Source of the DNA: a virus
Taxonomy: Duplodnaviria > Caudoviricetes
DNA length: 64,000 nucleotides
IMG/VR virus record: IMGVR_UViG_3300029305_005280
Reading direction: 5' to 3' (one strand)
The position numbers and the translations under genes were made by a program. The notes under the pieces were generated by a model. It saw only the letters and a program-made list of their open reading frames with translations, was not told the origin of the DNA and ran no database searches. Below, one piece after another: positions 17,111 to 54,190 of this stretch (the stretch's first letter is position 1; every line of letters begins with the position of its first letter).

Positions 17111-17129
17111 TTATTAAGGAGAAAGATAA

Positions 17130-18083
17130 ATGGCTATTGCAATTATTCTATGTTTAGTTTTCCTGGCTCTTATTGCAGGAACTATTGTTTATGCTGTCCG
17201 TAGTTACAGCAAGGTTGAATCCTCGTATTATAGTGAACAGTCAGAAAAGACTATTGCTAAGAACAAGAAGCTCAAGAAGCAAGGACTTATCGCAATTGTT
17301 CTCTGTGTAATCTGTGTAATTGGATTTATTTTCATCCCTTGGTCATTCCATACTGTTGACCAGAGTGAAGTAGCAGTTGTTAAGTCTCTCGGTAAGATTA
17401 AGAATACTCGTGATGCTGGTACATATTTTGATTTCTGGGTACTCAATTCTTACACAACGTATAGCACTAAGGTACAGGAAGTAACTCTGGAAGATATGGC
17501 ATACTCGAGTGATGCACAGCAAATGACACTTGCAATTAAATTCCAGTATCAGATTATGCCCGATAAGATTAAGGAAATTACCACACAGTATGGCAACCTT
17601 ACAACTCTTGAAGCTCGAATTACACCAACTGTTAGAGATAAAGTAAAAGGTGTTTGCTCTTCACTTACTGCTATGGAAATCATTGCACAGCGTGAAACAC
17701 TTTCAGCTAAAGCATTTGAATCTGTAAAAGACGCACTTGGTACTGGATATCATGTAAATATCACAAGTGTAGCAATTACTAACATTGATTTTAGTGACCA
17801 GTTTGAAACAGCTGTTGAAGAGAAGATGATTGCAGAACAGCAAGCACTCAAGGCTGAATATGAAAATGAAGCAAAGGTAGCAAAAGCAGAAGCTGATGCA
17901 AAGGCAAAATTGCTTGAAGCAGAGGCGCAAGCGGAAGCAAATAAACTTCTTCAGAATTCTATCACTGACAAGACCCTCAAAGAAAAGTATCTCGACAAGT
18001 GGGACGGTAAGCTACCTGAAGTAGTTGCAGGAGAAGATATTTCAATGATTCTTCCTTCTTATGGTGAAGATGCAGCTAACTAA
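17130..18083 (+). CDS. SPFH/prohibitin (band 7) membrane protein
   Basis: Two N-terminal TMs, NIDFSDQFETAVEEK, AEA-rich coil, KWDGKLP. Confidence 0.92.
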   Translation: MAIAIILCLVFLALIAGTIVYAVRSYSKVESSYYSEQSEKTIAKNKKLKKQGLIAIVLCVICVIGFIFIPWSFHTVDQSEVAVVKSLGKIKNTRDAGTYFDFWVLNSYTTYSTKVQEVTLEDMAYSSDAQQMTLAIKFQYQIMPDKIKEITTQYGNLTTLEARITPTVRDKVKGVCSSLTAMEIIAQRETLSAKAFESVKDALGTGYHVNITSVAITNIDFSDQFETAVEEKMIAEQQALKAEYENEAKVAKAEADAKAKLLEAEAQAEANKLLQNSITDKTLKEKYLDKWDGKLPEVVAGEDISMILPSYGEDAAN

Positions 18084-28019: not shown

Positions 28020-28167
28020 GCGTTGGAAATGAAACTACCCAATGTTTGAGACAAGCTCACAAAGATGCTTGAAGCCCGCAAGGCAAAGTGTTGTCCACAT
28101 CAGTCACTTTAGAGGTGGATAGGTTATAAAGTAGGTATACATATAATATAACTGACGGTGACAATAT

Positions 28168-28237
28168 GGGTGTATACTTTAAGTGGTAAAAACTAATGCT
28201 ATATATTAGATTGCTGGTTCGAGCCCAGCTGCGCCCA
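28168..28237 (+). pseudogene. Degenerate tRNA / tRNA-like RNA
   Basis: Acceptor GGGTGTA/TGCGCCC, T arm GCTGG-TTCGAGC-CCAGC, weak D arm, non-canonical loop, no CCA tail. Confidence 0.65.
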
Positions 28238-28252
28238 AGCTCTCCTATATAT

Positions 28253-32344: not shown

Positions 32345-33003
32345 TTCGTACCTTGAAAGATGTATACAATATAACTCAGTGATAAACATAAGGTACGCTC
32401 CTTATGCTGAGAGGAGCCCTAATTCTTCGGAAACGATTCCACGACAGAGAAACGTAAGAGGATACTCGGAAAAATGTCGTTACTTTGAGTAGTGATATTC
32501 AAAGTTGCAGAAGTAAACTTCAATGGAATGGGCTCTGTGCTGAGGTTATTGCAAGTAATGGTAAAGTGGGCATCGCACTCGTAATAGAGGCTATCGTTAA
32601 TACCGATAGCTGAATCCAAGTTAGGATTTTAGCTGGTGACTGTAATCAAACCTTGTGAAATACCACCAAGAGTGTTGGTCGTGATGTTCTTGAAAAAGAA
32701 AGTATAAGGTGCTCATCCAGTTTCCGAGTAGCCGAAGACCAGTGGTAATTGAAGAAACAAATAATTTAGAAAGTAAGATTATCAAATTCTTCTGAATAGA
32801 CGGTGAAAGGTGCAGGTAATCAGTCCTGCTATAGCTTGTGTGGTCCAGGGTCCCGCCGTTAACGGGAAGCCCAGACTTCGTGGCAAGAAGTTAGGGGTCG
32901 CTACCCGAAGCTCAGACTTGTCATCTATATGACCGAATATACTTGAAAATAATTATCAGTAATCCGAAGGGATAGTTGTTGTATATATCTTTAAAGGTAC
33001 GAA
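32345..33003 (+). ncRNA. Large structured RNA, ROOL-like
   Basis: 659 nt, no credible ORF, closed by a long terminal helix TTCGTACCTTGAAAGATGTATACAA / TTGTATATATCTTTAAAGGTACGAA; internal hairpins GCAGG-TAATCAGT-CCTGC and GGG-GTCGCTA-CCC; flanked by tRNAs. Confidence 0.75.
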
Positions 33004-33993: not shown

Positions 33994-34407
33994 TTGATAA
34001 GGAAGGTTGGTTATATGGGATACGAAAGTAAACTTTATGTTGTGGATGTAAAAGATGACAATAGTATGTGCCTTGGTCCTAAAGGAATGAAATGGGGTCA
34101 GGTTATTGCAACATTTGAATTAAGCGTTTTTGAACCTGTTAGAAACTATTTCAAAACTAGAACAAACACAGATTGTTATATCTATGCCGATGATGGTAAT
34201 ACAATAATCTTAGAGGATAGATATGGTAATCCTTTAACAGAATCAAACATTGAACCTCTTGTAAACCTTCTTAAAGAAGAAGCTCTTGATGATTCTTTTG
34301 GAGGTCAACCCTATCGTAGAATAAAGCCCTGTCTTGCAATGTTGGAGATGTTTATGCTCAATTCTTCGCAGTGGGGCAATCTTAAAGTATTACATTATGG
34401 GTATTAA
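33994..34407 (+). CDS. Hypothetical protein (likely start MGYESK)
   Basis: Promoter 33952-33983, GGAAGG RBS. Confidence 0.7.
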   Translation: MIRKVGYMGYESKLYVVDVKDDNSMCLGPKGMKWGQVIATFELSVFEPVRNYFKTRTNTDCYIYADDGNTIILEDRYGNPLTESNIEPLVNLLKEEALDDSFGGQPYRRIKPCLAMLEMFMLNSSQWGNLKVLHYGY

Positions 34408-34470
34408 GTTGAAATAATCAACATAATATATTATAATGATATATGAAGAAAGACAAAGGAGTGTTCTTAG

Positions 34471-36120
34471 ATGAGTAAATTATCTAAAGCAGTTGAAGCA
34501 ATGCACGAAGATGTAGTGCTTCGTAAAGATGAAACAGAAGTTAACTTTATGGGTGGTGACTCCTACAAGTTAAATCCGCTTGAAACCTTGAAGATGATTA
34601 GTGCTTCTTCCATCTTTGGTGAACCTTCTTACTACCGTGACGGCAGAAGTGCAAAGAAAACACTTTACAAGGTAGACAGGCTTGTAAAAGATTGGCTCAT
34701 TATTCCTGACCGCTATGTAGGTAAAAATACAGAGCAAATCATGGAGTCTGCAATTGATGCAGCACTGGAGTATGATTTTGGCGCGACGCTTGAGTGGGCA
34801 ACTACTTTGCGTAATGATTTCTTTATGCGTCTTAATCCTCAAGTCATTATGGTAAGAGCAGCTATGCATCCTAACCGTAAAGAATGGACCGAGGCTAATC
34901 CTGGCAAATTCAATGAATATAATCAGATGGTTATGAAGCGTGCAGATGAGCCTATGTCTCAGATGGCTTACTATCTGTATCTTAATAAAGGTAAGAAGAA
35001 TAAGATTCCTTCTGTTATTAAACGCTCTTGGGCTGACAATCTGAGCAAGCTGAATCGTTACAAGGTTGCTAAATACAAGAATCATGAAATTGGAATGATT
35101 AACGGTGTACGCCTTTGCCACGCAAATTCCAAAGTTCTTGATGAACTGATGACCAGTGGCACCGTTGAAGTTTCTGAGGATTCTAAAACTTGGGAAAATC
35201 TTCGTTCAGAAGGAAAGACCTGGGAAGAAATCTTTGATACTGTAGATATGGGCCATATGGCATTACTGAGAAATATCAGAGGCGTTTTCTCCGAATCTGA
35301 CAACAAGGACCTTTTTGTAAGATACATGACTAAACTTAAATCAACTGTAAAAGATGGAAAGCAATTTCCTTTCAGATACTGGTCTGCAATCCAAGCTGTT
35401 CAAGGCAGTAACTGTAACTTTAAACCCTTAATCATTGATGCCCTTGAAGAATGTATGGATATTGCGGTTGATAACTATCCCAAGCTAAGAGGCAAAACAA
35501 TGTGCCTATCAGATAACTCTGGCTCTGCTTGGGGAGCTGTAACAACTGAGTACGGCTCTGTGACTGTTGCAAATATTGATAATCTTTCCTCTGTTATTAC
35601 TGCAGCTTGTTCCGATGAAGGATATGTTGGTAAGTTTGGTGACAGATTGATTACCCATCCTATCAGCAAACGCAGAGGTATTCTGTCTCAAGCAGAAGCA
35701 ATTACTCGTGATAGAGACCGAGATGTTGGCGGTGGTACTGAAGGCGGTATCTGGGAATTCTTCAGAAGTGCTATTGATAAGAAAGAACACTGGGACAATA
35801 TCTTTATCTATTCTGATATGCAAGCAGGACATGGTGGTCTGTATGGCACAAGTTCTCAATACAATGACTATCGTCGTAGAGGATATGATATTGGAAACCA
35901 TATCAATGTGTTCAAACTTGTACAGGATTATAGAAAAATTGTTAATCCCAAAGTAAATGTATTCTCTATTCAAACAGCAGGTTATACTAATAACTTGATG
36001 CCTGAGATGGCATACAGAACTGCAATTTTGAGTGGTTGGACTGGCAAGGAAGCTTCTTTTGCGGAAGAGTACATTCGTCAGTGGGATGAAATTGAAACAA
36101 AAAATTCTAAAAAGAATTAG
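34471..36120 (+). CDS. rsr: Ro60/Rsr-like TROVE-domain RNA-binding protein
   Basis: NFMGG..Y start, EPSYY, VAKYK, TWE, MALLRNIR, QFPFRYWSA, vWA MIDAS-like SDNSGS, YSDMQ, LSGW; own promoter 34406-34437. Confidence 0.93.
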   Translation: MSKLSKAVEAMHEDVVLRKDETEVNFMGGDSYKLNPLETLKMISASSIFGEPSYYRDGRSAKKTLYKVDRLVKDWLIIPDRYVGKNTEQIMESAIDAALEYDFGATLEWATTLRNDFFMRLNPQVIMVRAAMHPNRKEWTEANPGKFNEYNQMVMKRADEPMSQMAYYLYLNKGKKNKIPSVIKRSWADNLSKLNRYKVAKYKNHEIGMINGVRLCHANSKVLDELMTSGTVEVSEDSKTWENLRSEGKTWEEIFDTVDMGHMALLRNIRGVFSESDNKDLFVRYMTKLKSTVKDGKQFPFRYWSAIQAVQGSNCNFKPLIIDALEECMDIAVDNYPKLRGKTMCLSDNSGSAWGAVTTEYGSVTVANIDNLSSVITAACSDEGYVGKFGDRLITHPISKRRGILSQAEAITRDRDRDVGGGTEGGIWEFFRSAIDKKEHWDNIFIYSDMQAGHGGLYGTSSQYNDYRRRGYDIGNHINVFKLVQDYRKIVNPKVNVFSIQTAGYTNNLMPEMAYRTAILSGWTGKEASFAEEYIRQWDEIETKNSKKN

Positions 36121-36125
36121 TGATT

Positions 36126-36157
36126 TAGTTGATAAATGAAGCATAAAGCTTTATAAT
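36126..36157 (+). promoter_or_regulatory. Promoter for the Y-RNA-like array
   Basis: TAGTTGA-N19-TATAAT; no ORF downstream. Confidence 0.8.
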
Positions 36158-36189
36158 ATAAATGTAGAAAGATAATTAAATATTGACAA

Positions 36190-36296
36190 CTGCTTGATGC
36201 AGAGACAGATGCTTACTTCATTGGTTGAAAATTTGTCTTGAAAACGAATACAGCAGGTTCGAGTCCTGTATTAGCATCTTCATTATTCTCAAGCAG
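36190..36296 (+). ncRNA. Y RNA (YrlA-like) unit 1, Ser(UGA) anticodon arm + T arm cargo
   Basis: CTGCTTGA/TCAAGCAG, AGATGCT/AGCATCT; GATGCAG, TTACTTC, TATTCTC; ATTTGT-CTTGAAA-ACGAAT; GCAGG-TTCGAGT-CCTGT. Confidence 0.85.
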
Positions 36297-36317
36297 GACC
36301 TTCCTTTATGGAATAGT

Positions 36318-36421
36318 ATTTCTGATGCAGTAAATCAAGTTACTTCAGGCTTTGACTTTTAATCAAAATACCTAATAGACTTAAAATCTATCAATACACT
36401 TGATTTGATATTCTCAGAAAT
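36318..36421 (+). ncRNA. Y RNA-like unit 2, two bare anticodon arms Lys(UUU) + Leu(UAA)
   Basis: ATTTCTGA/TCAGAAAT, AAATCAAGT/ACTTGATTT; TTTGA-CTTTTAA-TCAAA and ATAGA-CTTAAAA-TCTAT. Confidence 0.85.
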
Positions 36422-36441
36422 TATTGTATAAAATATATAAC

Positions 36442-36609
36442 ATGTGTGAAGCAGGGAGATTAGTTACTTCGAAAGGTTTGGTCTGTTAAACCCGAAGTCG
36501 TTGGTTCGAATCCAACCATTGTTAGTAACGGCGAGTGAAAGCAATGTAACTCAGCTGGAAAGAGTGCGTGTAAATTTAGAAATTTACTAATTTCATTATT
36601 CTCACACAT
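36442..36609 (+). ncRNA. Y RNA-like unit 3, circularly permuted Asn(GUU)-type tRNA cargo
   Basis: ATGTGTGA/TCACACAT, GAGATTAGT/ACTAATTTC; order anticodon loop CTGTTAA, T arm, acceptor CATTGT/GCAATG, D arm. Confidence 0.85.
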
Positions 36610-36624
36610 CTATTTAAAAGTAAT

Positions 36625-36774
36625 ATTTACGATGCAGTCATATCAGTTACTTCGTTGCATTGGGTGCCTGGTGTCATTGGTTCGAGTCCAATATTCCCGC
36701 CCATTTATGCGGGAATTAGCTCAGTCGGTAGAGCACAGTAGAAATTATTAGCTGATATATTTATTCTCGTAAAT
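36625..36774 (+). ncRNA. Y RNA-like unit 4, circularly permuted Pro(UGG)-type tRNA cargo
   Basis: ATTTACGA/TCGTAAAT, ATATCAGT/GCTGATAT; loop ATTGGGT, T arm, ATTCCCGC-CCA-TTTAT-GCGGGAAT, D arm TAGCTCAGTCGGTAGAGCA. Confidence 0.88.
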
Positions 36775-36791
36775 TTTTAATTTGATGTTAT

Positions 36792-36912
36792 AGCTGAAGC
36801 AGACTACAGAGTTACTTCAAATACATAGTACTAATGTTATATTATATAAAAGAACAAAATATGTTAGCCGTGAGCTTACATAGATAAACACTCTGTAACT
36901 TAATTCTCAGCT
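36792..36912 (+). ncRNA. Y RNA-like unit 5, AT-rich cargo
   Basis: AGCTGA/TCAGCT, TACAGAGT/ACTCTGTA; GAAGCAG, TTACTTC, AATTCTC; no tRNA motif inside. Confidence 0.78.
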
Positions 36913-36918
36913 TTATTT

Positions 36919-36995
36919 GCGGGATTGGTGTTTAATGGTTAGCATCTCAGTCTTCCAAACTGATGGTGAGGGTTCGAGTCCCTTATCCCGCTCCA
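36919..36995 (+). tRNA. tRNA-Gly(TCC)
   Basis: TCAGT-CTTCCAA-ACTGA; U73; CCA. Confidence 0.95.
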
Positions 36996-44321: not shown

Positions 44322-46655
44322 TGGCGGATAAGATATATCTATATGGTGCTCGAGATATTACAACGGGCAAGTTAGTCTCTGATATTACCAACCCAAGAAG
44401 AAAATACTGGGACCGAAAAGGTAATGCACAAAGTGCTATTGACTACTATAATAGAACTTGTGCTAATAGACCGCGGAACCTTGGTTATGGTAATAAAGGA
44501 GTGCACGGGACTATTGAATTAGTTACATTTGAACTTGTGGAGGTTAAAAATGAAAGTAACAATTGAAATGGACAATCTTCAAGGTATTATTGAGGATGCT
44601 GCAAAGCAGAATACCAAGGAAGTAATTGAAGACTGGGTAAAAGAAAGAGCCCAATCAATCTTAGATAGAGATTATAAAGACATTATCAACGAAGTAGTTA
44701 CTGCTAAGATAAAAGAATATATTACTACATATATTGATTGTTATCAGATTTCTGTCGGCGGGGGACTTGATGGTACTCCCATTCAGTATTACACTCCAAG
44801 AGAGTATATCAATAAGATTATTACTGACACTTTCCGTGATAAGAAACTTACTACTTATGTAGAGCGTAGTTATGGTGGTAGAGACAAGAAAGAAGTAACT
44901 TTCGAAGAATTTATCAAAGAACATCTTAATCCCACATATGAAATTCAGCATCATATGGAAGCACTTGGAAAAAGTGTTAAGAATGAGGTTAGTGCTTTAC
45001 TTAAGAAGGAATATGATAAATCATTACAGAATGCTCTGTCCGGTGTTATTATGGATGTTATCATGGAAAATGAGGCATTTAAAAATGTCAATGATAACAT
45101 CAAACGCTTGGGTGATTGATTATGCAGGGTGAATTGTTGCATGATTACAAGTCTTGTGGGTATTGTGTACAAACTTGCTATGAGTGGGACACAGGATATG
45201 CAGAGTATGGATGCACACTAGGAGATAACAATCCTGATAAGAATGAGTGTGTTGAGGCAGTATGCCCACTTGATTGTAGATATAAAGTGGAAGAATAAAC
45301 AAATTCAAAAGGTGATAACGTATGACCATTTTATACCATGATGAGCGTACACCCAAAAAGGAATTGTACGATATTGCAGAACAGCTTAGAAAGGTTGTTG
45401 GCAAAGAGATTTTAGTGCTACCAAAAAACTTTGATATTTTACTTGATTGTTCAATTGACCAGTTAATCCAAGTTAGAGCAATGTTGGATGCAACAATACA
45501 GCAAAAGATTGAACAAGAATCAGATACACAGAATACATGCACTATTACAAAAGATGGTAAATATCTAAACTAATTACAAAGAGATAAGTTAACTGTTTAG
45601 TTGATTTATCTCTCTTTTTATTTTATAATAAGTTTAAAGAAAGAAGGAAGGAGAGTATTTTTAATTACATATTATTTGATGAGGAGTTATAGATATGAAA
45701 ATTCGTTATGCAGTAGAAATGGAAGTTGAATTACCTGATGATTTTACTGACGAAGAAGTGGATTTTAAAGTGGCTCTTCTTGCAGAAGGCAACGAATGTT
45801 GTTGGACAAAAGATGAAGATGTTTCGTTGTTTGGATATGATGATTAAAAAGTATGTTTAATGTCAACTACAGGATTAAAAATTTCACACAAGATTGAAGC
45901 TTTTACAAACTTTGTTACAGAGGCAACATCTATATACAGATATTGTGTTGAGATGCTTCATAAATGTGAAGGATTTGAATGCGATATACGTCATAAACTT
46001 GAATTAAAGCAGTACAAAGACCGAAATGAAAGGGCAAGATTGCACACGTTGCTTGAGAATTGTTTCAGAGACAGACGATATTACAAGGACCGTATTGAAG
46101 AACTTGAACCTTTCGTGTTGTTATTCGAGGATACTGCAAAGGAAAAAGAACAAAACACAAGGGCTAACAAGAGCTGTTTAAATGCAATCAAACAATCATT
46201 AGGTAATGTGCGTAAAGCAGAAAGTTATCATAAAGAAAGAACTTATAGACCTCGTGTGTTGAAAGATATGTATGGTGAAACAGATGTTAAATAAAGATAT
46301 ATTTACTAAGATAATTGTGTCTTGTCAAAAACTTGATAAAGTAATCAAGAATCAAGAAAAGATATTTGAATGTAATATGGAAGATGGGCCACTTTTAAAT
46401 GCGTGGGAAACTCTAATGAATCTATTGGTGGCTGAGTGTGAATTTGTTATTGATGATGAAATTGGACCTATTATATATGAATTTGCACTATGCAATAACT
46501 GGGGAAATGACTCAAAGAGTTACTACATTGAAGGTAAAGAATATCTTGTGTATGACGCAGAATCATTGTGGGACTATCTCGATGAAAAACTACAATATGA
46601 TGTAACACATTTTAAGAAAGAAGAGAGTTGCAATGAAACACACAGTTGTTGTTAA
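44321..46655 (+). other. Cluster of hypothetical genes (44321-44566, 44529-45119, 45116-45298, 45322-45573, 45860-46294, 46272-46655)
   Basis: Packed + strand ORFs, no recognisable motifs. Confidence 0.6.
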
Positions 46656-47187
46656 TTTGGCGGGCCCTCCGGGTGCAGGAAAAAGTACAGGGGCTGCAGA
46701 AATTTTTACAATCTTAAAGAAAAATAATATAAATTGTGAACTTGTTGCAGAATTTGCAAAAGATAAAACATGGGAACATAATAATAAAGCCCTTTCATGT
46801 CAGGAATATGTGTTTGGTAAGCAATCGTACAGACTTGCTAGATGTAGAGATGATGTTGATGTAATTGTTACTGACAGCCCTTTACCTTTATCCATTATCT
46901 ATAACACTAATCCATGTATTGAGGAATCGTTTCCAGAGTTGGTAATGGATATTTTTAACACATATGTTAATATGAATTTCTATATCAAACGAGTTAAACC
47001 ATATAATCCGAAAGGGCGTAATCAAACAGAATCAGAAAGTGATGCTTTGGGGCCTAAAATCAAAAAATTATATGACACATTGAAGATTCCCTATGAATGT
47101 GTCAATGGAGACGATGAGGGATATAGATATATAGCGCATCAAGTATTGTCTTTCCTAGAGGAGTTTAGAAATGGACTTAACGGTTAA
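46633..47187 (+). CDS. P-loop kinase/ATPase (NadR/AAA_28-like)
   Basis: GPPGAGKST, VTDSPL, Y.P.GR.Q. Confidence 0.8.
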   Translation: MKHTVVVNLAGPPGAGKSTGAAEIFTILKKNNINCELVAEFAKDKTWEHNNKALSCQEYVFGKQSYRLARCRDDVDVIVTDSPLPLSIIYNTNPCIEESFPELVMDIFNTYVNMNFYIKRVKPYNPKGRNQTESESDALGPKIKKLYDTLKIPYECVNGDDEGYRYIAHQVLSFLEEFRNGLNG

Positions 47188-47626
47188 GATTGGTAAGCTT
47201 GATAGACCTAACTTGAATAATGTGGTTTATAGCAAAGAATGCATTCAAAATGTAGAAAAACAAATTTTAGGAAATATAATTCCTGTAAAACTTATTACAA
47301 ATGATTTTTGGAATCAGACTGTGGCACCTGTTGGAAGTGCACAACTGGATACCGCATTATATCCCGAACTACATTTTAGTGTCAATATATGTGACCCAGA
47401 GGTAAAGAAATCAATTTATGAGTTACAGATGCAAATTTTAAATGAATATGCTCCTAAACTTATTGTTGACAGAAGCACAATTAAAAGACTTGTTTTTCAG
47501 CTTTGTGAAGATATTGAACTAACAAAAAATAACAAAGGATTAGTTATGAAAACTCTTTCTTCAAATCTAAAGGGTAAGGCAGATATGAAAATTGTATCTG
47601 ATGTAGTTAATGGGTTACTGTTATGA
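47171..47626 (+). CDS. Protein with GatB/YqeY-like C-terminus
   Basis: ILNEYAPK...NKGLVMKTL...LKGKADMKIVSDVV. Confidence 0.6.
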   Translation: MDLTVKIGKLDRPNLNNVVYSKECIQNVEKQILGNIIPVKLITNDFWNQTVAPVGSAQLDTALYPELHFSVNICDPEVKKSIYELQMQILNEYAPKLIVDRSTIKRLVFQLCEDIELTKNNKGLVMKTLSSNLKGKADMKIVSDVVNGLLL

Positions 47627-48325
47627 TGTTAGAGCCTTTAGCAGTAAAACTGCTTGATAAACACTATGAGCTTGAGGATGCTCTAACTCTTGAGGGGAAT
47701 TCTTTTTCTTTGAGAGTACGTTTAATCTTAAGAAGATTAAAAGCACACAAGGCAGCTAAAAAACTAGAGTCTTTATATAGGAAGTGATGTTGATGGGCAG
47801 CTACAAAGGATTACCAAAGGATACGACTATTGTATTCCCATCTTTGATAAGAACAGGACATGATATTATTTTAAAGGTTGTTTCTTATAATGAAGAGACA
47901 GAGTCATATGAAGTTGCAAGGGTGTATAAAGATAGAATCACACCAACAACTGAAAAGTTAACAGTTAAATCAATGGAGGCAAGAAACCCCTTGATTACTC
48001 TACCGGGAGGTATCCATGAAGCATAATGAAATGTTGTTTCAAGAAGCAATAGAATTTATTACACCTTTGCGTCCTATCAAAGTTGTATGGAATGATAAAA
48101 CAATTATTTACAATGATTATGACAGTGACAATGTGTGCACTGTTTTTGAAGACGGTACTAAGGCGTATGGAGAAATTTTCCCTCTTCAAGCTGTTATCTC
48201 TCAACGCCTTGGTCAAACTTTGGAAAAGTATGATGTGTTTGTAAAGAGTTTTAATGTTAAGATTGTTGATTATCATCATACGCTAGTATACTTGTATGGA
48301 TACAAAAAACGGAGGAAAAAGAAAA

Positions 48326-49159
48326 ATGACTAAAGATTCACTTGGTGACCGTATGAAGCATAACTACGAAAATCGTAGTAAAACATATCTAACGAGAAGA
48401 ATGCCTGTTATTATTAGATTAGATGGAAAAGCATTTCATTCATTCACTCGAGGATTTGAAAGACCTTATGATACTGTATTTCATACTGCAATGAACAATA
48501 CTTTGCAGTATCTATGCGAGAATATTCAAGGGTGTCGATTAGGTTATACACAGTCCGACGAAATAACATTATTATTAACTGATTATGAAAAATTAACAAC
48601 AGACGCTTGGTTTGATTATGCGGTACAAAAGATGTGCTCTGTCGCTGCATCTATGGCTACAATGGCCTTTAATAGATATTTTATGGATGCAGTAAATGTT
48701 GCTTACAATGAATTTACAAATGGTACTACTGATATTCAATCGTTCTACCCTAATATTAAGGATTTTGACAGATTGTTTGATACACGTTTTAGTAGAATCA
48801 ATACCGCTTGTTTTGATGAACGATGCTTTAATGTTCCTAAAGAGGAAGTTGCAAATTGTTTTATCTGGAGACAGCAAGATGCAACAAGAAATGCAATTCA
48901 AATGCTTGGGCAAACACATTTTTCTGATAAACAACTTGATGGTAAATCAAATAGCGAAGTTCAGGATATGTTAATGTTAGAAAAAGGTATCAATTTCAAC
49001 GATATGGCAACAGAATTCAAACGTGGTGTGTGCTGTTGTAAAATAGCAAATCCTGAGGAATCAACAACTATCGGTGTTCTGATTAGACCTCAATGGGTAA
49101 TTGATACTGAAATTCCTATCTTTACTCAAGATAGAAACTATATTGAGAGGTTTGTTTAA
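48326..49159 (+). CDS. thg1: tRNA-His guanylyltransferase-like (Thg1/TLP) 3'-5' polymerase
   Basis: IIRLDGKAFH.FT, YTQSDEI, FD.R.F..P, WRQQDA.RN. Confidence 0.94.
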   Translation: MTKDSLGDRMKHNYENRSKTYLTRRMPVIIRLDGKAFHSFTRGFERPYDTVFHTAMNNTLQYLCENIQGCRLGYTQSDEITLLLTDYEKLTTDAWFDYAVQKMCSVAASMATMAFNRYFMDAVNVAYNEFTNGTTDIQSFYPNIKDFDRLFDTRFSRINTACFDERCFNVPKEEVANCFIWRQQDATRNAIQMLGQTHFSDKQLDGKSNSEVQDMLMLEKGINFNDMATEFKRGVCCCKIANPEESTTIGVLIRPQWVIDTEIPIFTQDRNYIERFV

Positions 49160-49954
49160 TTGAAATTATTTGTAGTTAGCGATATACATTCTTTCTATAC
49201 ACCATTGAAAGAATCACTTGATAAAGCAGGGTTTGACCCCACCAATGAAAATCATTGGTTAATCAGCTGTGGAGACGCATTTGATAGGGGTCCACAAAGT
49301 AAAGAAGTTCTTGAATTTTTAATGAGTCTTGAGAGAAAGGTTCTTGTCAAAGGTAATCATGATATATTACTTAAAGAACTTTGTATGCGTGAATTTCCTT
49401 ACTCACATGATAAATCAAATGGTACTGTCAAAACTGTGATTAGTTTTGGTCACTTTGATGGACGTAATTTTGATGAATGCTGCCGAACAACCTGGAATAA
49501 AACTGCAAGATACAGAGAGTTATTAGTAAATTATTTTGAAACTCAAAATTATATCTTTGTTCATAGCTGGATACCCACTAATGTTAAATATGAAGGAGAA
49601 ATGAAACCTTGGTATCAACAAGGCAAGACTCTTACTTGGATGGAAGATTGGCGTAATGCTAATGACGTCGAATGGGAAGAGGCTATGTGGGGTAACCCCT
49701 TCAAGAGATGGCAAGAAGGTCTTAATAAAACAGGTAAAATAATAGTGTTTGGGCACTGGCACTGTTCTGCGGGGCACGCTATGCTGCACGAAGTAAAGGT
49801 ATCAGAAAATGAATCAGTAGGTACAATATCTGAATTTGAAGATGATGCCGTCTGGGACCCTTTTATTCATGATAATATTATTGGTATTGACCGATGCACA
49901 GCACACACTGGTGAAGTAAATGTGTTAGTACTGGAGGACGATTTTCTTGAGTGA
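49160..49954 (+). CDS. Metallophosphoesterase (Ser/Thr phosphatase-like)
   Basis: SDIHS, GDAFDRG, GNHD, FVHS, GHWH, ID. Confidence 0.9.
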   Translation: MKLFVVSDIHSFYTPLKESLDKAGFDPTNENHWLISCGDAFDRGPQSKEVLEFLMSLERKVLVKGNHDILLKELCMREFPYSHDKSNGTVKTVISFGHFDGRNFDECCRTTWNKTARYRELLVNYFETQNYIFVHSWIPTNVKYEGEMKPWYQQGKTLTWMEDWRNANDVEWEEAMWGNPFKRWQEGLNKTGKIIVFGHWHCSAGHAMLHEVKVSENESVGTISEFEDDAVWDPFIHDNIIGIDRCTAHTGEVNVLVLEDDFLE

Positions 49955-50997
49955 AAGTTTAAAACAAGATATATTAAATGCAGCAAGAGATGGCTACCAA
50001 CCAATAAATGACCCTTCAAAACAAACGGTGGATTGGTCCAAGCTTCCGACAACAGGAAGTAATGTCACCAAATTACCAAAGACATCAAGTGTTGAGGCAT
50101 ACATTCAATGTTTAGAGAATGAATTAATCAAACAGATTGCACTCAAGCAGAATGCTGAAAGTCATGCATCAACAATGGAAGCTATTGCAAACAAGTACTA
50201 TGAATTCTATTTGAAGGAGGTACATCGAAATGCGAAAGTTACATATTGGAAGAAAGCAATTTGTAAGCATTCTAGAATCAATTCAAAAAGGAATAGAAAA
50301 AAGAGACAAATTCAACAATGCAATGGAAGAAATTTCCGATAGCTACTTTATATGTGAACTTGGCAATGAGTGGCTAAATGCTTCAATAATTTTACTTGAG
50401 AAAGCAGTAAAAGATAAAGCTGAAACAATTAGTTGGTGGTTATGGGAAGATGTTGAAAAAGTTATATACATACCTCCAGAGCATCCAGATAATCCTTTTG
50501 GCAAAGAACTCAAAGTAAAAGTTGACACTCCTGATAGATTATATAGTTATTTTCAACGATATACTTAGATATAAAAGAAGTCAAAATAAATTAGTTGACT
50601 TCTTTTTATTTTTACCATATAATATAGTAAAGAAGGGAAGGTTGTTTATATGAATATAAGAAAATTTTTTAAAGTTATTGTATGGGTTGTTACAATTTTG
50701 CTGCTTCTGTATATTATAGCAGTGTCAGAAATTGATACACTTATCGGAATTGTCGGAGGAGTTTTGATTGCAATAATTGTTCCTCCAATCATTATGGGTA
50801 AGTTTGAAGTTGTTTCAAAACCCAGTAGAGAAAAGAAAGAAACTAAAAAGCAAAAGACAGTTGTAACGCATCCTACAAGTTGGTGGGTTGATAAAACTTA
50901 TGTTCCCGGTGTGGGATACAGGGACGATGAAGGTAATTATTATGATTACAATGGTATACCAAAACCGTCAACCGTTATTACGAGGGAGAAAAAGTAA
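49947..50997 (+). other. Hypothetical genes 49947-50342, 50230-50568, 50650-50997 (last has 2 TMs)
   Basis: Packed + strand ORFs. Confidence 0.55.
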
Positions 50998-51149
50998 TGG
51001 ATAAAAGAGTATTCAAAAAGACACCTGAAGAATTACAACTGTATCTACACTTTAAAAAACGTGGCTTTAAGATTGAAAATAAAAAAGGCAAGGGTTCCTA
51101 TAAAAGGAACCCTAAACATAAGGGTGATAAGAATGGACAAGAAGAGTAG
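50997..51149 (+). CDS. ArfA-like alternative ribosome-rescue peptide (50 aa, not in ORF track)
   Basis: MDKRVFKKTPEELQLYLHFKKRGFKIENKKGKGSYKRNPKHKGDKNGQEE; KKGKGSY.R..KH signature; TAATG coupling and GGAG RBS. Confidence 0.75.
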   Translation: MDKRVFKKTPEELQLYLHFKKRGFKIENKKGKGSYKRNPKHKGDKNGQEE

Positions 51150-51933
51150 AATAATGGAAAGACTACATCATGATATGATGTATGTTACTAATAAAGGTTA
51201 CAAAGTACTTGGTGTATTTCTACAAGGTAGTCAAAATTACAATCTTGACTATCCGGGTTCTGATATTGATACAAAGTGTATTGTTATTCCTTCATTTGAA
51301 GATATTGTTTTAAACAAACAACCTGCAAGTACTACTCTTATACTTGAGGATAATTCACATATTGATGTTAAAGATGTACGTCTTATGTGGCAGTGCTTCA
51401 AGAAACAAAACATTAACTTTCTTGAGATTCTATTTACAAAATATTATATAGTAAGTAGTAGATATGAATTGTTCTGGAATGATATGAGAGAAATCGCAGA
51501 ACGTATTGCACACTATAATAACTATGCTGCAGTTAACTGCATTGCGGGTATGGTTATGGAAAAGAATGCAGCGTTGTGTCACCCATATCCAACATTGAAG
51601 GACAAGATTGATAAGTATGGCTATGATAACAAGCAACTACATCATATTATTCGATGTGAAGAATTCTTACAGCGATATATTGATGGTGTTCCGTATAAAA
51701 AATGTTTAATTCCTTTGTTTCCTGAATACTTAATCAATGTTAAATCAACATATATGTATTCACTTGAAGAAGCAAAAGAAATAGCAAGAAAAGCTGTTGA
51801 AAATGTTAAAGAAATAAAACAGAAATATATGGACACACATCCTGTAAGCATTGATGACGGCGTTGAAACTACAATGACTGAAATACTTGTTGACATAATG
51901 AAAAGGTCTATTGCAGAGGACATCAAAGATTAG
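51133..51933 (+). CDS. Pol-beta-type nucleotidyltransferase
   Basis: LQGSQNYNL....SDIDTK, D.KD.R, N.NFLEILF, K.L.H..R. Confidence 0.85.
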   Translation: MDKKSRIMERLHHDMMYVTNKGYKVLGVFLQGSQNYNLDYPGSDIDTKCIVIPSFEDIVLNKQPASTTLILEDNSHIDVKDVRLMWQCFKKQNINFLEILFTKYYIVSSRYELFWNDMREIAERIAHYNNYAAVNCIAGMVMEKNAALCHPYPTLKDKIDKYGYDNKQLHHIIRCEEFLQRYIDGVPYKKCLIPLFPEYLINVKSTYMYSLEEAKEIARKAVENVKEIKQKYMDTHPVSIDDGVETTMTEILVDIMKRSIAEDIKD

Positions 51934-51995
51934 TTGTATTTTTAACTAAAGTATATTATAATAAAGTAAAGAAAACTTAATAAAGAGGTGAACTC

Positions 51996-52964
51996 GTGGA
52001 AACCTTTGTACCCACAAATTTAAAAATTCCCGAGTTTGTTATGCTTGTAGGTTTGCCAGGAAGTGGTAAATCATATCTAGCTGATATTCTTTTTGCTAAG
52101 AAATACAGCATACATAGCAGTGATGAAATAAGAAAAGAGTTATCAGGTGACATCAATAATCAAAATATAAATTCACAAGTATTTCAAACTTTACATAGAA
52201 GAATAAAAGATGATTTAAAAAATGGTATTAGTTGTGTTTATGATGCAACTAATATTAACTATAAAAAACGAATGTCATTTCTGCAAGAATTAAACAAGAT
52301 TCAATGCTTTAAGAGATGTATTATTATTGCAACCCCATATGAAGTTTGTTTAATGCAAAATGAGCAACGGGAACGTAAGGTTCCTGAGCAAGTTATTGAA
52401 CGCATGTATCGTAATTTTGATGTTCCTTATTATTTTGAGGGCTGGGACAATATTGAATTATTCTATGCAAAGGATTCATACAAAGAGGCTTATGGTGACT
52501 GGTCTTACTTTGTATTTGATACCCTTACATATAATCAGGATAACAAATATCATATCGAAACACTTGGAGAACATTGTCGTAAGTGTAAAGAATATGTAGA
52601 AAATTACAATAATAAAACAACTCTTAAAGGAACGCATATTGCTCACGCTCAAAGAGTCGCTGCTGCATTACATGATTGTGGTAAGCCTTTTTGCAAAACA
52701 TTCGAAGATACAAAAGGTAATATCACTGAAAGTGCACATTATTACAATCATGAAAAAGTAGGTAGTTATAACTCTTTATTTTATGAAACTGAAACTCAGT
52801 TAACACCGATTAGATTGTATATTGCAGCATTGATACGATGGCACATGCAAATGCATTTTATTGATAATCAACCACACGCAAAAGGAAAGTATATAAAGTT
52901 ATTTGGTGAAGAATTCTACAAAGAGCTGGAGGTATTACATAATGGAGACAAACAAGCACATTAA
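51996..52964 (+). CDS. Polynucleotide kinase (AAA_33) fused to HD phosphohydrolase
   Basis: GLPGSGKS, SSD.IR, DATN, R.R.VP; H...L.EH, LHDCGKP, HYY.HE..G, WHM. Confidence 0.88.
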   Translation: METFVPTNLKIPEFVMLVGLPGSGKSYLADILFAKKYSIHSSDEIRKELSGDINNQNINSQVFQTLHRRIKDDLKNGISCVYDATNINYKKRMSFLQELNKIQCFKRCIIIATPYEVCLMQNEQRERKVPEQVIERMYRNFDVPYYFEGWDNIELFYAKDSYKEAYGDWSYFVFDTLTYNQDNKYHIETLGEHCRKCKEYVENYNNKTTLKGTHIAHAQRVAAALHDCGKPFCKTFEDTKGNITESAHYYNHEKVGSYNSLFYETETQLTPIRLYIAALIRWHMQMHFIDNQPHAKGKYIKLFGEEFYKELEVLHNGDKQAH

Positions 52965-53794
52965 CATTGATGACGCATTTGACTACAAACAGTATTTACA
53001 ATCAGCAAGAGACAAGATGCTTTCTGAAGCTTATGAGCAAGACGATGACTACTTACCAGATGACGATGTATGCGATGTTATTGAATTGTTTAGGGAGTAT
53101 ATGGATTGATGATACATATTTGTGATGAAGCACAAAATCATAATGTAATGGTTGTAAAAGAGAATGGTAAATTTAATGTTTACTCAAAATATTACAATCT
53201 TTATGATAAACCTAAGATAACAGACCCCGATTGGTATCTGTCCTTGAGGATAAAAGATATCAAGGTTTGTCCTTATTGTGGTGTAAAATTAAGTTAGTTG
53301 AATAATCTCCTTCCTTATATTATAATGTTATTGTAATAAGGAAGGAGATATTTTTATGATTATTCCTAAAAAGCACAAAAGGTGGCTAACTTTTAAGTGG
53401 AATGAAAGTACATATATTATAACTTCTCCTGAAAACGATAGAAGTATATATACTTTGTTTAAGCAGATTAGTAACACAGAATATGTACAGCTTGCTACAG
53501 GAAATAATTGCAAGAGGCTTGAAGACAAAGTGTATGAAGGAAAGTATAAGTGAGGTAGAGAGATGTTTATTAGAACATATAACAATAGGTTAATAAATGT
53601 TGACAATATTATCAAAGCAGAATTGTGTACAAGCAATAGAATGCTGAGTGAAAACGCACTTGTTGTTTGTACTACACTTGATAATTATGAAGTATTTCAG
53701 GGCACCAGGTATGATTGTGAAAATGCAATGACAACATTGTGTGAAGCTATTGCGAAAGGTGCTTCTCTAATCTCATATTACAAGGATGATATTG

Positions 53795-54190
53795 ATGAAA
53801 ATATGGGTTGATGATGTAAGAATTCCACCTTCGGGGTATGTTTGGTGTAAAAGTGTTGCGGAAGTCATTAAACTCATAGAGAATATAGATAATTTCAGTG
53901 ATGAGGTTATGGGTTGCGTACTTTCAGTTCCTGGGTTCTTTAATGTGCGAGAAGCAGATGGCTATATGCATAACTGGGTTTATTCGTCCTTAAATCCTCC
54001 CAAAATTGAACTCATTGATATAGACCATGATGCAGGTGAATATTCTCAGTATGGTGGGGATTATATAAAAATTCTAGACTGGCTTGAAGAGACCGGTCGT
54101 AATTATCCCATTCATATTCATTCAATGAACCCCGTAGGTGTTGAAAATATGAGAAGAATTATACAAAGAAATGGTTGGAAAGAACTATGA
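53795..54190 (+). CDS. Cyclic-phosphate-processing receiver-domain protein
   Basis: IWVDDVR.PP, IDIDHDAG, GGDY..IL.WLE, IHSMNPVG..NM. Confidence 0.8.
   Translation: MKIWVDDVRIPPSGYVWCKSVAEVIKLIENIDNFSDEVMGCVLSVPGFFNVREADGYMHNWVYSSLNPPKIELIDIDHDAGEYSQYGGDYIKILDWLEETGRNYPIHIHSMNPVGVENMRRIIQRNGWKEL

What the first reader, a model, noticed from the sequence alone, without database searches (positions are those of the whole stretch)
34406..36995. Ro60/TROVE gene followed by a five-unit Y-RNA-like array with different tRNA-derived cargo: candidate phage tRNA-decoy system
Seen: after the TROVE gene and a dedicated promoter come five tandem units (36190-36296, 36318-36421, 36442-36609, 36625-36774, 36792-36912). 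Each is [outer stem]-GAWGCAG-[inner stem]-TACTTC-[cargo]-[inner stem']-WATTCTC-[outer stem']. The stems differ in sequence yet always pair, while the three motifs are constant. Cargo is Ser(UGA) arm + T arm, Lys(UUU)+Leu(UAA) arms, a permuted Asn tRNA, a permuted Pro tRNA, or AT-rich sequence. Established: bacterial Ro60 (Rsr) binds adjacent Y RNAs; YrlA RNAs have a tRNA-like module; anticodon nucleases such as PrrC and PARIS AriB cut tRNA-Lys(UUU) in anti-phage defence. Inference: Ro60 serves as a stable display platform for a panel of anticodon loops that titrate host tRNA nucleases, or that recruit repair enzymes or PNPase.
Basis: partly seen in the sequence, partly recalled or inferred. 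Interest (0 to 1): 0.95.

Follow-up and report, generated by a model that had tools for sequence, protein, structure and literature searches.

The report
Phage Ro60 with five-unit Y-RNA array
A large herbivore-gut phage encodes a Ro60-type RNA-binding ring protein followed by five small RNAs that share one conserved "handle" but display different pieces of tRNA, including bare anticodon arms; this is a real, widespread and uncatalogued variant of the known Ro60/Y-RNA particle, and its proposed role as a decoy for tRNA-cutting defence enzymes is plausible but untested.

Summary
The ORF is a true Ro60: its profile matches Thermus phage phiLo Ro60 (E 1e-33) and the predicted fold is HEAT ring plus vWA.

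The same handle (outer stem, WGCRG bulge, inner stem, UUACUUC, WAUUC) occurs 1-7 times beside Ro60 in about 100 phage loci. It is always on the gene's strand and is absent from 843 kb of control viral DNA. Cultured Bacillus phage G also has it. The handle is a variant of the published YrlA/Yrl features (CGAA-type bulge, YUAY).

Units 3 and 4 are YrlA-type T/closed-acceptor/D modules. Units 1 and 2 carry anticodon-arm mimics. [quoted passage not shown] So this is a new variant of a known kind. The nuclease-decoy function remains untested; Hughes et al. 2020 already floated it for YrlA.

The parts
34409..34437 (+). promoter-like site (TTGAAA-17-TATAAT) upstream of the Ro60 gene
   Evidence: Consensus scan, 11 of 12 positions; an AGGAG-type ribosome-binding site precedes the ATG at 34471. 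Consensus match only.
34471..36120 (+). Ro60/Rsr-like protein (549 aa): HEAT-repeat TROVE ring plus vWA domain with a DxSxS MIDAS motif
   Evidence: Pfam TROVE 27.4 bits (cut-off 23). The family profile hits phiLo Ro60 9L5Y/9KOP at E 1.3e-33, human and Xenopus Ro60 at 3e-10 and 1.5e-9, and Rsr at 0.004. The AF2 model has pTM 0.81; Foldseek's top hits are 9KOP (TM 0.76), 2NVO and 1YVP. D348, S350 and S352 are invariant in 19 homologs.
36129..36157 (+). promoter-like site (TTGATA-17-TATAAT) between Ro60 and unit 1
   Evidence: Conserved in position in L001 only; most relatives have no room for it.
36190..36296 (+). Y-like unit 1: handle plus a cloverleaf-like cargo. It has a D-like hairpin, an anticodon-type arm at 36231-36249 (loop CUUGAAA) and a T arm at 36253-36269. 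The inner stem takes the place of the acceptor stem.
   Evidence: R1 38.4 bits, E 1.1e-6; fold; ARAGORN tRNA-Ser(tga) of 69 nt and Rfam tRNA 26.3 bits, below 29; 11-nt identity with the phage tRNA-Ser(UGA) anticodon arm but no long variable arm.
36318..36421 (+). Y-like unit 2: handle plus two bare anticodon-arm mimics, at 36351-36367 (loop CUUUUAA) and 36375-36391 (loop CUUAAAA)
   Evidence: R1 56.1 bits, E 6.7e-11; fold z -2.8; 13-nt and 11-nt identity with the phage's own tRNA-Lys(UUU) and tRNA-Leu(UAA) anticodon arms. The orthologs in L001 and L002 keep the CU-NNN-AA frame, and in L002 the triplets change to UCU and UCC.
36442..36609 (+). Y-like unit 3: handle plus a YrlA-type tRNA-like module (extended arm carrying CUGUUAA, T arm, closed acceptor-like stem, D arm)
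   Evidence: R1 45.0 bits, E 2.9e-8; Rfam YrlA 28.2 bits, E 0.001, below the gathering score of 69; fold. Orthologs in L001, L002 and L006 have a canonical 5-bp/7-nt CUGUUAA arm.
36625..36774 (+). Y-like unit 4: handle plus a YrlA-type module (small UUGGG-containing hairpin, T arm, 8-bp closed acceptor-like stem, D arm)
   Evidence: R1 50.1 bits, E 1.8e-9; Rfam YrlA 32.8 bits, E 4.7e-5; the D arm is identical over 21 nt to the phage tRNA-Asn D arm; fold.
36790..36914 (+). Y-like unit 5: handle plus AT-rich cargo with no tRNA-like feature
   Evidence: R1 41.2 bits, E 2.4e-7. The inner stem (UACAGAG) is conserved as the last unit of the L002, L004 and L049 arrays, while the cargo differs in length and sequence.
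36919..36995 (+). tRNA-Gly(UCC), 4 nt after unit 5; probably on the same transcript
   Evidence: ARAGORN and Rfam tRNA 39.3 bits. In relatives the array is followed by a different tRNA (Asn, Ala, Leu), so only the tRNA-cluster context is conserved.

Best explanation
This is a phage Ro60/Y-RNA ribonucleoprotein locus.

The five units are a polycistronic array of Y RNAs, transcribed with or just after the Ro60 mRNA and running into tRNA-Gly. They are cut apart in the 15-21-nt AT-rich spacers.

Each unit has two parts:
(i) A constant handle: a 6-8-bp outer stem ending in G-A/U-C, a bulge WGCAG opposite WAUUC, a 7-bp inner stem closed by G-C, and the junction UUACUUC. This handle is the Ro60-binding module and is a diverged version of the published CGAA-type bulged stem and YUAY kink of YrlA and phiLo Yrl RNAs.
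(ii) A variable, tRNA-derived effector module that projects from the handle. It can be an L-shaped tRNA body with a closed acceptor end (units 3 and 4), a cloverleaf-like body with an anticodon arm (unit 1), two bare anticodon arms (unit 2), or non-tRNA sequence (unit 5).

As with known Y RNAs, the handle would dock on the outside of the Ro60 ring, which stabilises the RNA. The module would bring Ro60 together with, or occupy, proteins that recognise tRNA.

The phage also carries 24 tRNAs and a heal-and-seal tRNA repair kit. The particle therefore most likely works in the phage-host conflict over tRNA integrity, presenting tRNA elbows and anticodon loops to tRNA-reading enzymes.

Shown here: the anatomy, the covariation, the Ro60 fold, the linkage to Ro60 and the anticodon-loop enrichment. 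Inferred: transcription and processing, Ro60 binding, and the identity of the proteins engaged.
For: - Model R1, which contains no window sequence, finds exactly the five units in the window.
- R1 gives 96 hits in 44 Ro60 loci, all on the Ro60 strand and almost all directly next to the gene.
- R1 hits nothing in 843 kb of unrelated viral loci, apart from two pieces of Ro60-bearing contigs.
- No unit lies on the opposite strand in 134 loci.
- Both helices covary.
- In relatives L008, L009 and L011 the 5' bulge reads GGCGAAG, which is the published GNCGAAN0-1G Rsr-binding motif. UUAC matches YUAY.
- phiLo Ro60, the best PDB match (E 1.3e-33, TM 0.76), binds two adjacent stem-bulge-stem RNAs carrying CGAA.
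- Units 3 and 4 hit Rfam YrlA over the whole model, below threshold.
- Cultured Bacillus phage G (gp540, 52.5% identical) has seven such units. One of them has a YrlA-like core at 36.2 bits.
- Anticodon-type hairpins are enriched: 50 against 10.8 +/- 3.1, maximum 22 in 300 shuffles.
- The loop-proximal stem pairs equal those of the phage's cognate tRNAs.
- Context genes: RNA ligase, Band_7, Thg1-like, Metallophos, AAA_33 kinase and cREC_REC.
- No ORF of 50 aa or more overlaps 36145-36912.
Against:
- Rfam YrlA stays far below its gathering score, and cmscan aligns the handle one helix out of register.
- In this window the bulge motif is YGAWGCAG, not CGAA, so Ro60 recognition is assumed by homology.
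- About half of all family units (70 of 133) have no recognisable tRNA feature. In phage G the short units show no anticodon arms. tRNA mimicry therefore cannot be the whole function.
- The pairing statistics are partly circular, because the units were selected by a pairing filter.
Confidence: 0.72

Rival explanations
1. Anticodon-nuclease decoy, inhibitor or sentinel. Ro60-stabilised units present anticodon arms of particular tRNAs (Ser-UGA, Lys-UUU, Leu-UAA, Asn-GUU and others). These compete with real tRNAs for host anticodon nucleases of the PrrC, RloC, AriB, colicin E5/D or Cas13 type. Alternatively, they are cleaved first and so signal the attack to the phage repair genes.
For: - Anticodon-type loops with U33, a purine at 37 and real anticodon triplets are about 5-fold enriched.
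- They keep the CU-NNN-AA frame while the triplet changes between orthologs: UUU/UAA in W and L001, UCU/UCC in L002.
- They copy the loop-proximal stem pairs of the phage's own cognate tRNAs.
- The 'Ser' mimics lack the long variable arm, so they are not decoding tRNAs.
- The phage invests in tRNA repair (ligase, kinase, phosphoesterase, Thg1-like, cREC_REC), which implies that its tRNAs are attacked.
- Hughes et al. 2020 proposed competitive inhibition of an anticodon nuclease by YrlA.
- PrrC is known to be countered by phage tRNA repair (abstract of PMC2610378).
Against: - No nuclease, cleavage or rescue was tested.
- Titrating a catalytic nuclease requires tight non-productive binding or very high copy number.
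- Half of the family's units, and the short units of phage G, carry no anticodon arm.
- The bias towards U34 and G34 triplets may simply be inherited from phage tRNA genes.
- The host and its nucleases are unknown.
Confidence: 0.22
2. Classical RYPER-type tether. The modules serve mainly to tether Ro60 to host PNPase or other exoribonucleases, so that structured RNA (damaged tRNA, rRNA, host transcripts or CRISPR RNA precursors) is degraded. The tRNA-like folds mainly give nuclease-resistant, protein-dockable structure.
For: This is the only experimentally supported mechanism for bacterial Y RNAs (D. radiodurans and Salmonella). It was reproduced in vitro for phage phiLo Ro60 + Yrl + host PNPase, which is the closest solved homolog. 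It would also explain units without tRNA features.
Against: It does not explain why loops keep anticodon geometry with real, varying anticodons and cognate-like closing pairs, nor why 5-7 different modules are kept. No PNPase gene was seen among the window ORFs I scanned.
Confidence: 0.3
3. Scaffolded pro-tRNAs or a processing cassette. The handle is a leader-trailer duplex (for example an RNase III- or RNase P-guiding structure) around tRNA-like genes. The units are precursors that release functional tRNAs or tRNA fragments, and the adjacency to Ro60 is operon history.
For: In L008, L011 and L041 the handle encloses whole cloverleaves that score as tRNA (58.9 bits Lys-UUU). M. smegmatis YrlA is cut by RNase P and receives CCA. 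Stem/internal-loop/stem structures resemble phage RNase III sites (my own knowledge, not tested).
Against: - None of the 24 ordinary tRNAs of this window has the handle.
- The handle follows Ro60, not tRNAs, across about 100 loci.
- In this window no unit has a free or separable 7-bp acceptor stem with a CCA.
- Units 2 and 5 contain no tRNA body.
- The 'Ser' cloverleaves lack the SerRS identity arm.
Confidence: 0.08
4. Decaying tRNA pseudogenes or a selfish repeat with no function.
For: The cargo is clearly derived from tRNA genes, and some cargo is AT-rich and unconserved (unit 5).
Against: Compensatory changes maintain both helices. Single-stranded motifs are invariant over Ro60 proteins only 50% identical. 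Unit order is conserved among W, L001 and L002. Strand and position relative to Ro60 are strict.
Confidence: 0.02

Closest known systems
Bacterial/phage YrlA-YrlB Y RNAs with Rsr (Rfam RF02553; Chen et al. 2014, PMC4201824; Wang et al. 2018, 10.1101/312249)
   Same: They are encoded within a few kb of Ro60 on the same strand. The 5' and 3' ends pair into a bulged stem carrying a CGAA-type motif. A YUAY (here UUAC) sits at the junction. There is a tRNA-like module of T arm + closed acceptor-like stem + D arm (units 3 and 4). Each genome has several Y RNAs, only some of them tRNA-like, and they can be polycistronic with tRNA.
   Different: They score 28-33 bits against a gathering score of 69. 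The bulge motif is YGAWGCAG. There are five to seven units in tandem instead of about two. [quoted passage not shown]
Thermus phage phiLo Ro60 with Yrl1/Yrl2 (NAR 2025, PMC12135203; PDB 9KOP, 9L5Y)
   Same: It is the closest solved protein (profile E 1.3e-33, TM 0.76). It is phage-encoded, its adjacent partner RNAs are stem-bulge-stem RNAs with CGAA, and binding and a RYPER-like complex with host PNPase have been shown.
   Different: Only 18% identity in the structural alignment. It has two RNAs upstream, not five downstream, and no tRNA-part cargo is described in the passages I read. The host lineage is different.
Deinococcus radiodurans Yrn1/Yrn2 and RNAs a, b, d (Chen 2000/2014)
   Same: A cluster of about five small RNAs lies next to rsr and is co-transcribed with a tRNA. 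Yrn1 has a T arm plus an anticodon-like arm in non-permuted order, like unit 1.
   Different: The Yrn1 'anticodon loop' has 6 nt. Those RNAs do not share one common handle. Similarity to Yrn1 was judged by architecture only, not tested by sequence.
Bacillus phage G gp540 locus (NC_023719)
   Same: The Ro60 is 52.5% identical over its full length. Seven R1 hits (21-51 bits) lie around the gene, five of them in tandem upstream. One has a YrlA-like core. The locus sits in a tRNA/tmRNA island.
   Different: The units lie upstream. The short units show no clear anticodon arms. None is annotated in the record. Chen 2014 and the phiLo paper list phage G among phages with a Y-like RNA, but I could not see their table.
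Phage counter-measures to anticodon nucleases: T4 Pnk + Rnl1 repair of PrrC-cut tRNA-Lys; nuclease-resistant phage tRNAs
   Same: The same conflict is implied here by the ligase, kinase, phosphoesterase and Thg1-like genes and the 24 tRNAs. Lys-UUU is the most frequently displayed loop.
   Different: Those systems repair or replace tRNAs. A Ro60-borne display of anticodon arms would be a third strategy and is unproven. This comparison rests on my own knowledge plus the abstract of PMC2610378.

Membership tests
Ro60/Rsr protein (TROVE + vWA) | TROVE/HEAT-repeat ring domain | tested here: met
   Pfam TROVE 27.4 bits (cut-off 23), partial; profile vs PDB phiLo Ro60 E 1.3e-33 and human/Xenopus Ro60 about 1e-10 to 1e-9; Foldseek 9KOP TM 0.76, 2NVO and 1YVP at prob 1.00.
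Ro60/Rsr protein (TROVE + vWA) | C-terminal vWA domain with a MIDAS (DxSxS) motif | tested here: met
   D348, S350 and S352 are invariant in 19 homologs; an alpha/beta domain follows residue 339 and Foldseek finds vWA hits.
Ro60/Rsr protein (TROVE + vWA) | Binds Y RNA on the outer surface and stabilises it | not testable with these tools
   Needs EMSA or RIP; inferred from homology to phiLo Ro60.
Y RNA (general) | Encoded near Ro60 on the same strand | tested here: met
   70 nt downstream of the stop codon in the window; 96 of 96 R1 hits are on the Ro60 strand in 44 loci; none occurs in control loci lacking Ro60.
Y RNA (general) | 5' and 3' ends pair into a long bulged stem that carries the Ro60-binding motif | tested here: met
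   Outer and inner helices with compensatory changes flank a conserved asymmetric bulge.
Y RNA (general) | Accumulates as a discrete small RNA dependent on Ro60 | not testable with these tools
YrlA (Rfam RF02553) | Reaches the family's gathering score (69 bits) | tested here: not met
   32.8 and 28.2 bits for units 4 and 3; no hit for units 1, 2 and 5; no YrlA hit at gathering in 15 related loci.
YrlA (Rfam RF02553) | GNCGAAN0-1G motif near the 5' end | tested here: inconclusive
   The window has YGAWGCAG (CGAUG, UGAUG, UGAAG). Relatives L008, L009 and L011 have the exact GGCGAAG. Whether the window variant binds is untested.
YrlA (Rfam RF02553) | Conserved YUAY at the start of the module | tested here: met
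   UUAC in all five units. All 57 distinct units have it, though UUAC was part of the search anchor there. It is also invariant in the 24 rows of alignment A2.
YrlA (Rfam RF02553) | tRNA-like module: T arm, closed acceptor-like stem, D arm; no anticodon loop | tested here: inconclusive
   Met for units 3 and 4; 13 of 25 rotated modules are called tRNA-like by ARAGORN. Not met for unit 1 (non-permuted, with an anticodon arm), unit 2 (anticodon arms only) or unit 5 (none).
tRNA (for unit 1 cargo) | Scores as tRNA, with a free 7-bp acceptor stem and cognate identity elements | tested here: not met
   Rfam tRNA 26.3 bits, below 29. The acceptor position is taken by the inner stem that continues into the handle. 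3-4 extra nucleotides lie at both junctions. There is no long variable arm, although the loop triplet is Ser-UGA.

The most novel reading that the evidence does not exclude
Phage Ro60 particles are a programmable display rack. One protein-binding handle carries interchangeable anticodon arms and tRNA bodies, and these act as non-productive substrates (decoys or inhibitors) or sentinels for host anticodon nucleases. The set of displayed anticodons would evolve with the host's nuclease repertoire. That would give Y RNAs' tRNA mimicry its first concrete function and would define a new class of RNA-based anti-defence.
Probability: 0.2. Interest if true: 0.85.

Novelty: new variant of a known kind. 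Interest (0 to 1): 0.62.

Why it matters
What the tRNA-like domain of bacterial Y RNAs is for has been open since 2014.

This phage family provides a natural series on one handle: a whole cloverleaf, an L-shaped body without a free end, an anticodon arm plus T arm, bare anticodon arms, and no tRNA part at all. In the searches run here the protein clade had more than 3,700 relatives at E <= 0.001.

The series says which tRNA parts matter. It points to anticodon-reading enzymes, which the published YrlA structure could not, and it gives ready-made variants for binding and rescue assays.

A cultured member, Bacillus phage G, makes the question directly testable. The handle model also finds Y RNAs that Rfam misses, so phage and gut-metagenome annotation would gain a new RNA family.

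Tried and rejected
- **Pattern scans of viral contigs.** They were useless for a census, so I reused them as negative controls.
- **First pairing filter.** It was too lax, passing 49 of 249 chance anchors. After tightening, 8 of 258 pass.
- **RNAalifold on the MAFFT alignment.** It found only the outer helix, because the 3' linker varies by 1-2 nt. The inner helix was specified by hand.
- **Rotating T/D-bearing cargo at the closed acceptor loop and running ARAGORN.** 13 of 25 were recognised as tRNA-like, but the anticodons it named lie at the artificial join.
- **phmmer of the single protein against the PDB.** No hit; the profile was needed.
- **blastn against GenBank phages.** It found only tRNA-Gly look-alikes and a weak phage G match.
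- **Whole genome.** None is held for this window, so the handle could only be searched in the 64-kb window, not genome-wide.
- **Chen 2014 supplementary tables.** Not held, so I cannot say which phage G RNA they listed.
- **Ideas considered and dropped.** Anticodon-anticodon kissing with host tRNAs was dropped because the complements of the displayed triplets are mostly not anticodons. A CCA in the acceptor-loop of unit 4 is not conserved in L001 or L002.

Full report
**What is there.** The window is from a large phage. It has 24 tRNA genes (23 of them between 25007 and 33285) and a ROOL RNA at 32351-32994 at 284 bits. It also encodes anaerobic ribonucleotide reductase, ThyX and SSB, and a set of RNA/tRNA-repair genes:
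- RNA ligase (16082-17107) next to a Band_7 gene
- Thg1-like protein (48296-49156)
- Metallophos phosphoesterase (49160-49951)
- AAA_33 kinase (51996-52961)
- cREC_REC protein (53786-54187)

The ORF 34471-36120 is followed by 800 nt with no ORF of 50 aa or more on either strand. That stretch holds the five units and then tRNA-Gly(UCC).

**The protein is a Ro60.** Pfam gives only a partial TROVE hit of 27.4 bits, and the single sequence finds nothing in the PDB. A profile of 19 homologs (A1) hits Thermus phage phiLo Ro60 (9L5Y/9KOP) at E 1.3e-33, human and Xenopus Ro60 at 3e-10 and 1.5e-9, and D. radiodurans Rsr at 0.004. The AlphaFold model (pLDDT 80.8, pTM 0.81) is a helical repeat domain followed by an alpha/beta domain. 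Its best Foldseek matches are 9KOP (TM 0.76), Rsr 2NVO and Ro60 1YVP, followed by vWA domains. The MIDAS DxSxS residues D348, S350 and S352 are invariant. The clade is large: more than 3,700 proteins at E <= 0.001 among the candidates scored, 53 IMG/VR loci, 80 metagenome loci kept of 168 and 22 MAG contigs labelled mostly as rumen or gut Clostridia. The last is only a weak hint about the host.

**The five units are real and are one family.**
- All five carry GATGCAG or GAAGCAG, then a 9-10-nt segment ending in the 5' strand of the inner stem, then TTACTTC. At the 3' side they carry WATTCTC.
- Each folds as outer stem / asymmetric internal loop / inner stem / multiloop.
- For an independent test I aligned 24 short units from other phages (A2) and specified the two helices. 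The covariation score is 0.69 against 0.24 +/- 0.03 in shuffles (0/500), with 14 of 15 pairs changing on both sides, and the signal is lost when partners are slid.
- From that alignment I built covariance model R1. In the whole window, on both strands, R1 finds exactly the five units (56.1, 50.1, 45.0, 41.2 and 38.4 bits; E 6.7e-11 to 1.1e-6) and nothing else below E = 2.
- Caveat: the training units were collected with a pairing filter, so the percent paired is inflated. The variety of pair types (4-6 per position) and the window result are not affected.

**Linkage to Ro60.**
- R1 gives 96 hits at E <= 0.001 in 44 Ro60 loci. All are on the Ro60 strand and nearly all are directly next to the gene.
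- In 100 unrelated viral loci (843 kb), each containing a chance match to the 5' signature, the only hits are in L096 and L135. These are pieces of the Ro60-bearing contigs of L004 and L001.
- A regex-plus-pairing finder gave 133 distinct units in 65 loci and none on the opposite strand.
- In the clade with Ro60 at least 64% identical to the window's, the units form downstream arrays: window 5, L001 6, L002 7, L049 6, L007 5, L291 6.
- In the 50-53% clade there are 2-3 units just upstream of the gene, and L008 and L011 have units on both sides.
- The order of unit types 1-2-3-4-5 is conserved among the window, L001 and L002, with one extra unit inserted in each of L001 and L002.
- Cultured Bacillus phage G (gp540, 52.5% identical over 99%) has seven R1 hits. 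Five are in tandem upstream of gp540, and none is annotated.

**Relation to known Y RNAs.**
- Chen et al. 2014 define YrlA by adjacency to rsr, a 5' GNCGAAN0-1G motif, a YUAY, and T, closed-acceptor and D arms. They note at least two Y RNAs per species, polycistronic transcripts with tRNA, and 22 phages with a YrlA.
- phiLo Ro60 binds two adjacent stem-bulge-stem RNAs with a CGAA motif and forms a RYPER-like complex with host PNPase.
- Here the bulge is YGAWGCAG in the window and CGAAGCGG in the more distant clades. In L008, L009 and L011 it reads GGCGAAG, exactly the published motif. UUAC matches YUAY.
- Units 4 and 3 match Rfam YrlA over the full model but at 32.8 and 28.2 bits against a gathering score of 69. 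cmscan aligns the inner stem to YrlA's first helix, one helix out of register.
- No YrlA hit reaches gathering in 15 related loci. In phage G only the tRNA-like core of one unit is seen, at 36.2 bits.
- The family is therefore related to YrlA but is not captured by the catalogue.

**Cargo.**
- *Units 3 and 4* have the YrlA-type module. When T/D-bearing modules are rotated at the closed acceptor loop, ARAGORN of 25 tRNA-like, but it puts the anticodon arm at the join, where the handle emerges. That fits the YrlA crystal-structure geometry and does not fit a literal 'permuted tRNA-Asn/Pro'. In L001, L002 and L006 the unit-3 ortholog has a clean 5-bp/7-nt CUGUUAA arm followed by AGGUC and the T arm. 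In the window that arm is extended.
- *Unit 1* is a non-permuted cloverleaf-like body whose acceptor position is the inner stem. Its loop CUUGAAA and two closing pairs equal those of the phage's tRNA-Ser(UGA), but it lacks the long variable arm.
- *Unit 2* has two bare anticodon-arm mimics. One shares 13 nt with the phage's tRNA-Lys(UUU) arm and the other 11 nt with its tRNA-Leu(UAA) arm. In L002 the orthologous loops read CUUCUAA and CUUCCAA, so the frame is kept while the triplet changes.
- *Family-wide*, 7-nt loops with the YU-NNN-R-N signature on stems of at least 4 bp (T loops excluded) number 50 in 133 units, against 10.8 +/- 3.1 in shuffled cargo, maximum 22 in 300. An earlier subset gave 27 against 6.5 +/- 2.4. 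The commonest triplets are UUU (9), UGA (6), UAA (4), GGU (4) and GUU (3).
- In L008, L011 and L041 the handle encloses whole cloverleaves that Rfam and ARAGORN call tRNA: Lys-UUU at 58.9 bits, plus Thr-GGU and Ser-GCU/UGA without the long arm.
- 70 of 133 units show no tRNA feature, including unit 5 and the short units of phage G.
- Wang et al. 2018 state that YrlA 'lacks the anticodon loop'. Anticodon-arm display is therefore the main difference from described Y RNAs.

**Transcription.** A TTGATA-17-TATAAT match lies at 36129-36157, and L001 has the same arrangement. L002, L291, L007, L004, L006 and L008 have only 8-16 nt between the Ro60 stop codon and unit 1. Co-transcription with Ro60 is therefore the general arrangement, and the internal promoter is at most a local addition. 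tRNA-Gly starts 4 nt after unit 5. In relatives a different tRNA follows the array. No expression data could be obtained.

**Mechanism.**
- Best supported by homology: the handle docks on Ro60 and the module engages tRNA-recognising proteins.
- Which proteins is open. A PNPase tether is the only mechanism with experimental precedent, but it does not explain anticodon-specific, cognate-like loops.
- The decoy, inhibitor or sentinel reading fits those loops and the phage's repair kit, and it has a published precursor (Hughes 2020). It is untested and cannot explain the units without tRNA parts.
- A processing-cassette reading is unlikely, because none of the 24 ordinary tRNAs carries the handle.

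**Literature and earlier notes.** No paper in the searchable library combines Y RNA, anticodon, phage and decoy. Iyer et al. 2021 mention ROT/TROVE with a tRNA-like partner as an RNA-repair platform in some jumbo phages. This scan has already noted Ro60 plus handle-RNA arrays in other phage genomes.

**Verdict.** This is a new variant of a known kind (Ro60/Y RNA). The decoy mechanism is unproven, at about 0.2.

Noticed in passing
window 32351-32994; L001 335-976: A ROOL RNA (Rfam RF03087, 284 and 277 bits) lies 1.5-3 kb upstream of the Ro60 gene in both the window and its closest relative. ROOL, the tRNA cluster and Ro60/Y RNAs therefore form one conserved 'RNA island'.
   Followed up: no
L017 3460-3672, L023 3452-3678, L033 3450-3675 and similar loci (Ro60 50-53% identical): The distant clade has one long unit (213-227 nt) with a conserved complex cargo. 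It ends in a GC-rich hairpin (CCUCCC-AUAA-GGAGGG) followed by ACCA just before the inner stem, which looks like an acceptor-minihelix with an NCCA end.
   Followed up: no
alignment A2, columns 66-70; window units 1-5 just before the 3' strand of the inner stem: A further semi-conserved element (AUAC or UUA) precedes the 3' strand of the inner stem, opposite UUACUUC. The two single strands may form a structured junction such as a kink.
   Followed up: no
window 16082-18080 and 46633-54187: The window holds a heal-and-seal RNA repair kit spread over two places. RNA ligase + Band_7 lie at 16-18 kb. An AAA_28 domain protein, a YqeY-like protein, a Thg1-like protein, a Metallophos phosphoesterase, an AAA_33 kinase and a cREC_REC protein lie at 46-54 kb.
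   Followed up: partly
L007 6650-6773; L001 7077-7123: Rfam DUF3800-I (55.6 bits) and DUF3800-XI (39.4 bits) RNA motifs lie within about 0.5-2 kb downstream of the Y arrays in two relatives.
   Followed up: no
unit-4 orthologs: window 36655-36661, L002, L004, L005, L006: The small hairpin of the unit-4 type always has G at loop positions 5 and 6 (UUUGGGU, UUGGGGA, UUAGGGA, UUGAGGU), the G36-G37 pattern of TrmD-substrate tRNAs.
   Followed up: no
L368 (Bacillus phage G) 3256-3859, 1779-1936, 9361-9427: Seven unannotated handle RNAs surround gp540 in a cultured phage, in an island that also has tRNAs and a tmRNA. This is a tractable system for experiments.
   Followed up: partly
window 28167-28238: A second tRNA-Ile(UAU)-like gene has an odd anticodon loop (GCUAUAU) and no encoded CCA. 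It scores only 35.5 bits and may be another non-decoding tRNA look-alike.
   Followed up: no
window 5323-6078: The phage encodes a peptide deformylase (Pfam 93.6 bits). With the tRNAs, this shows broad investment in translation.
   Followed up: no
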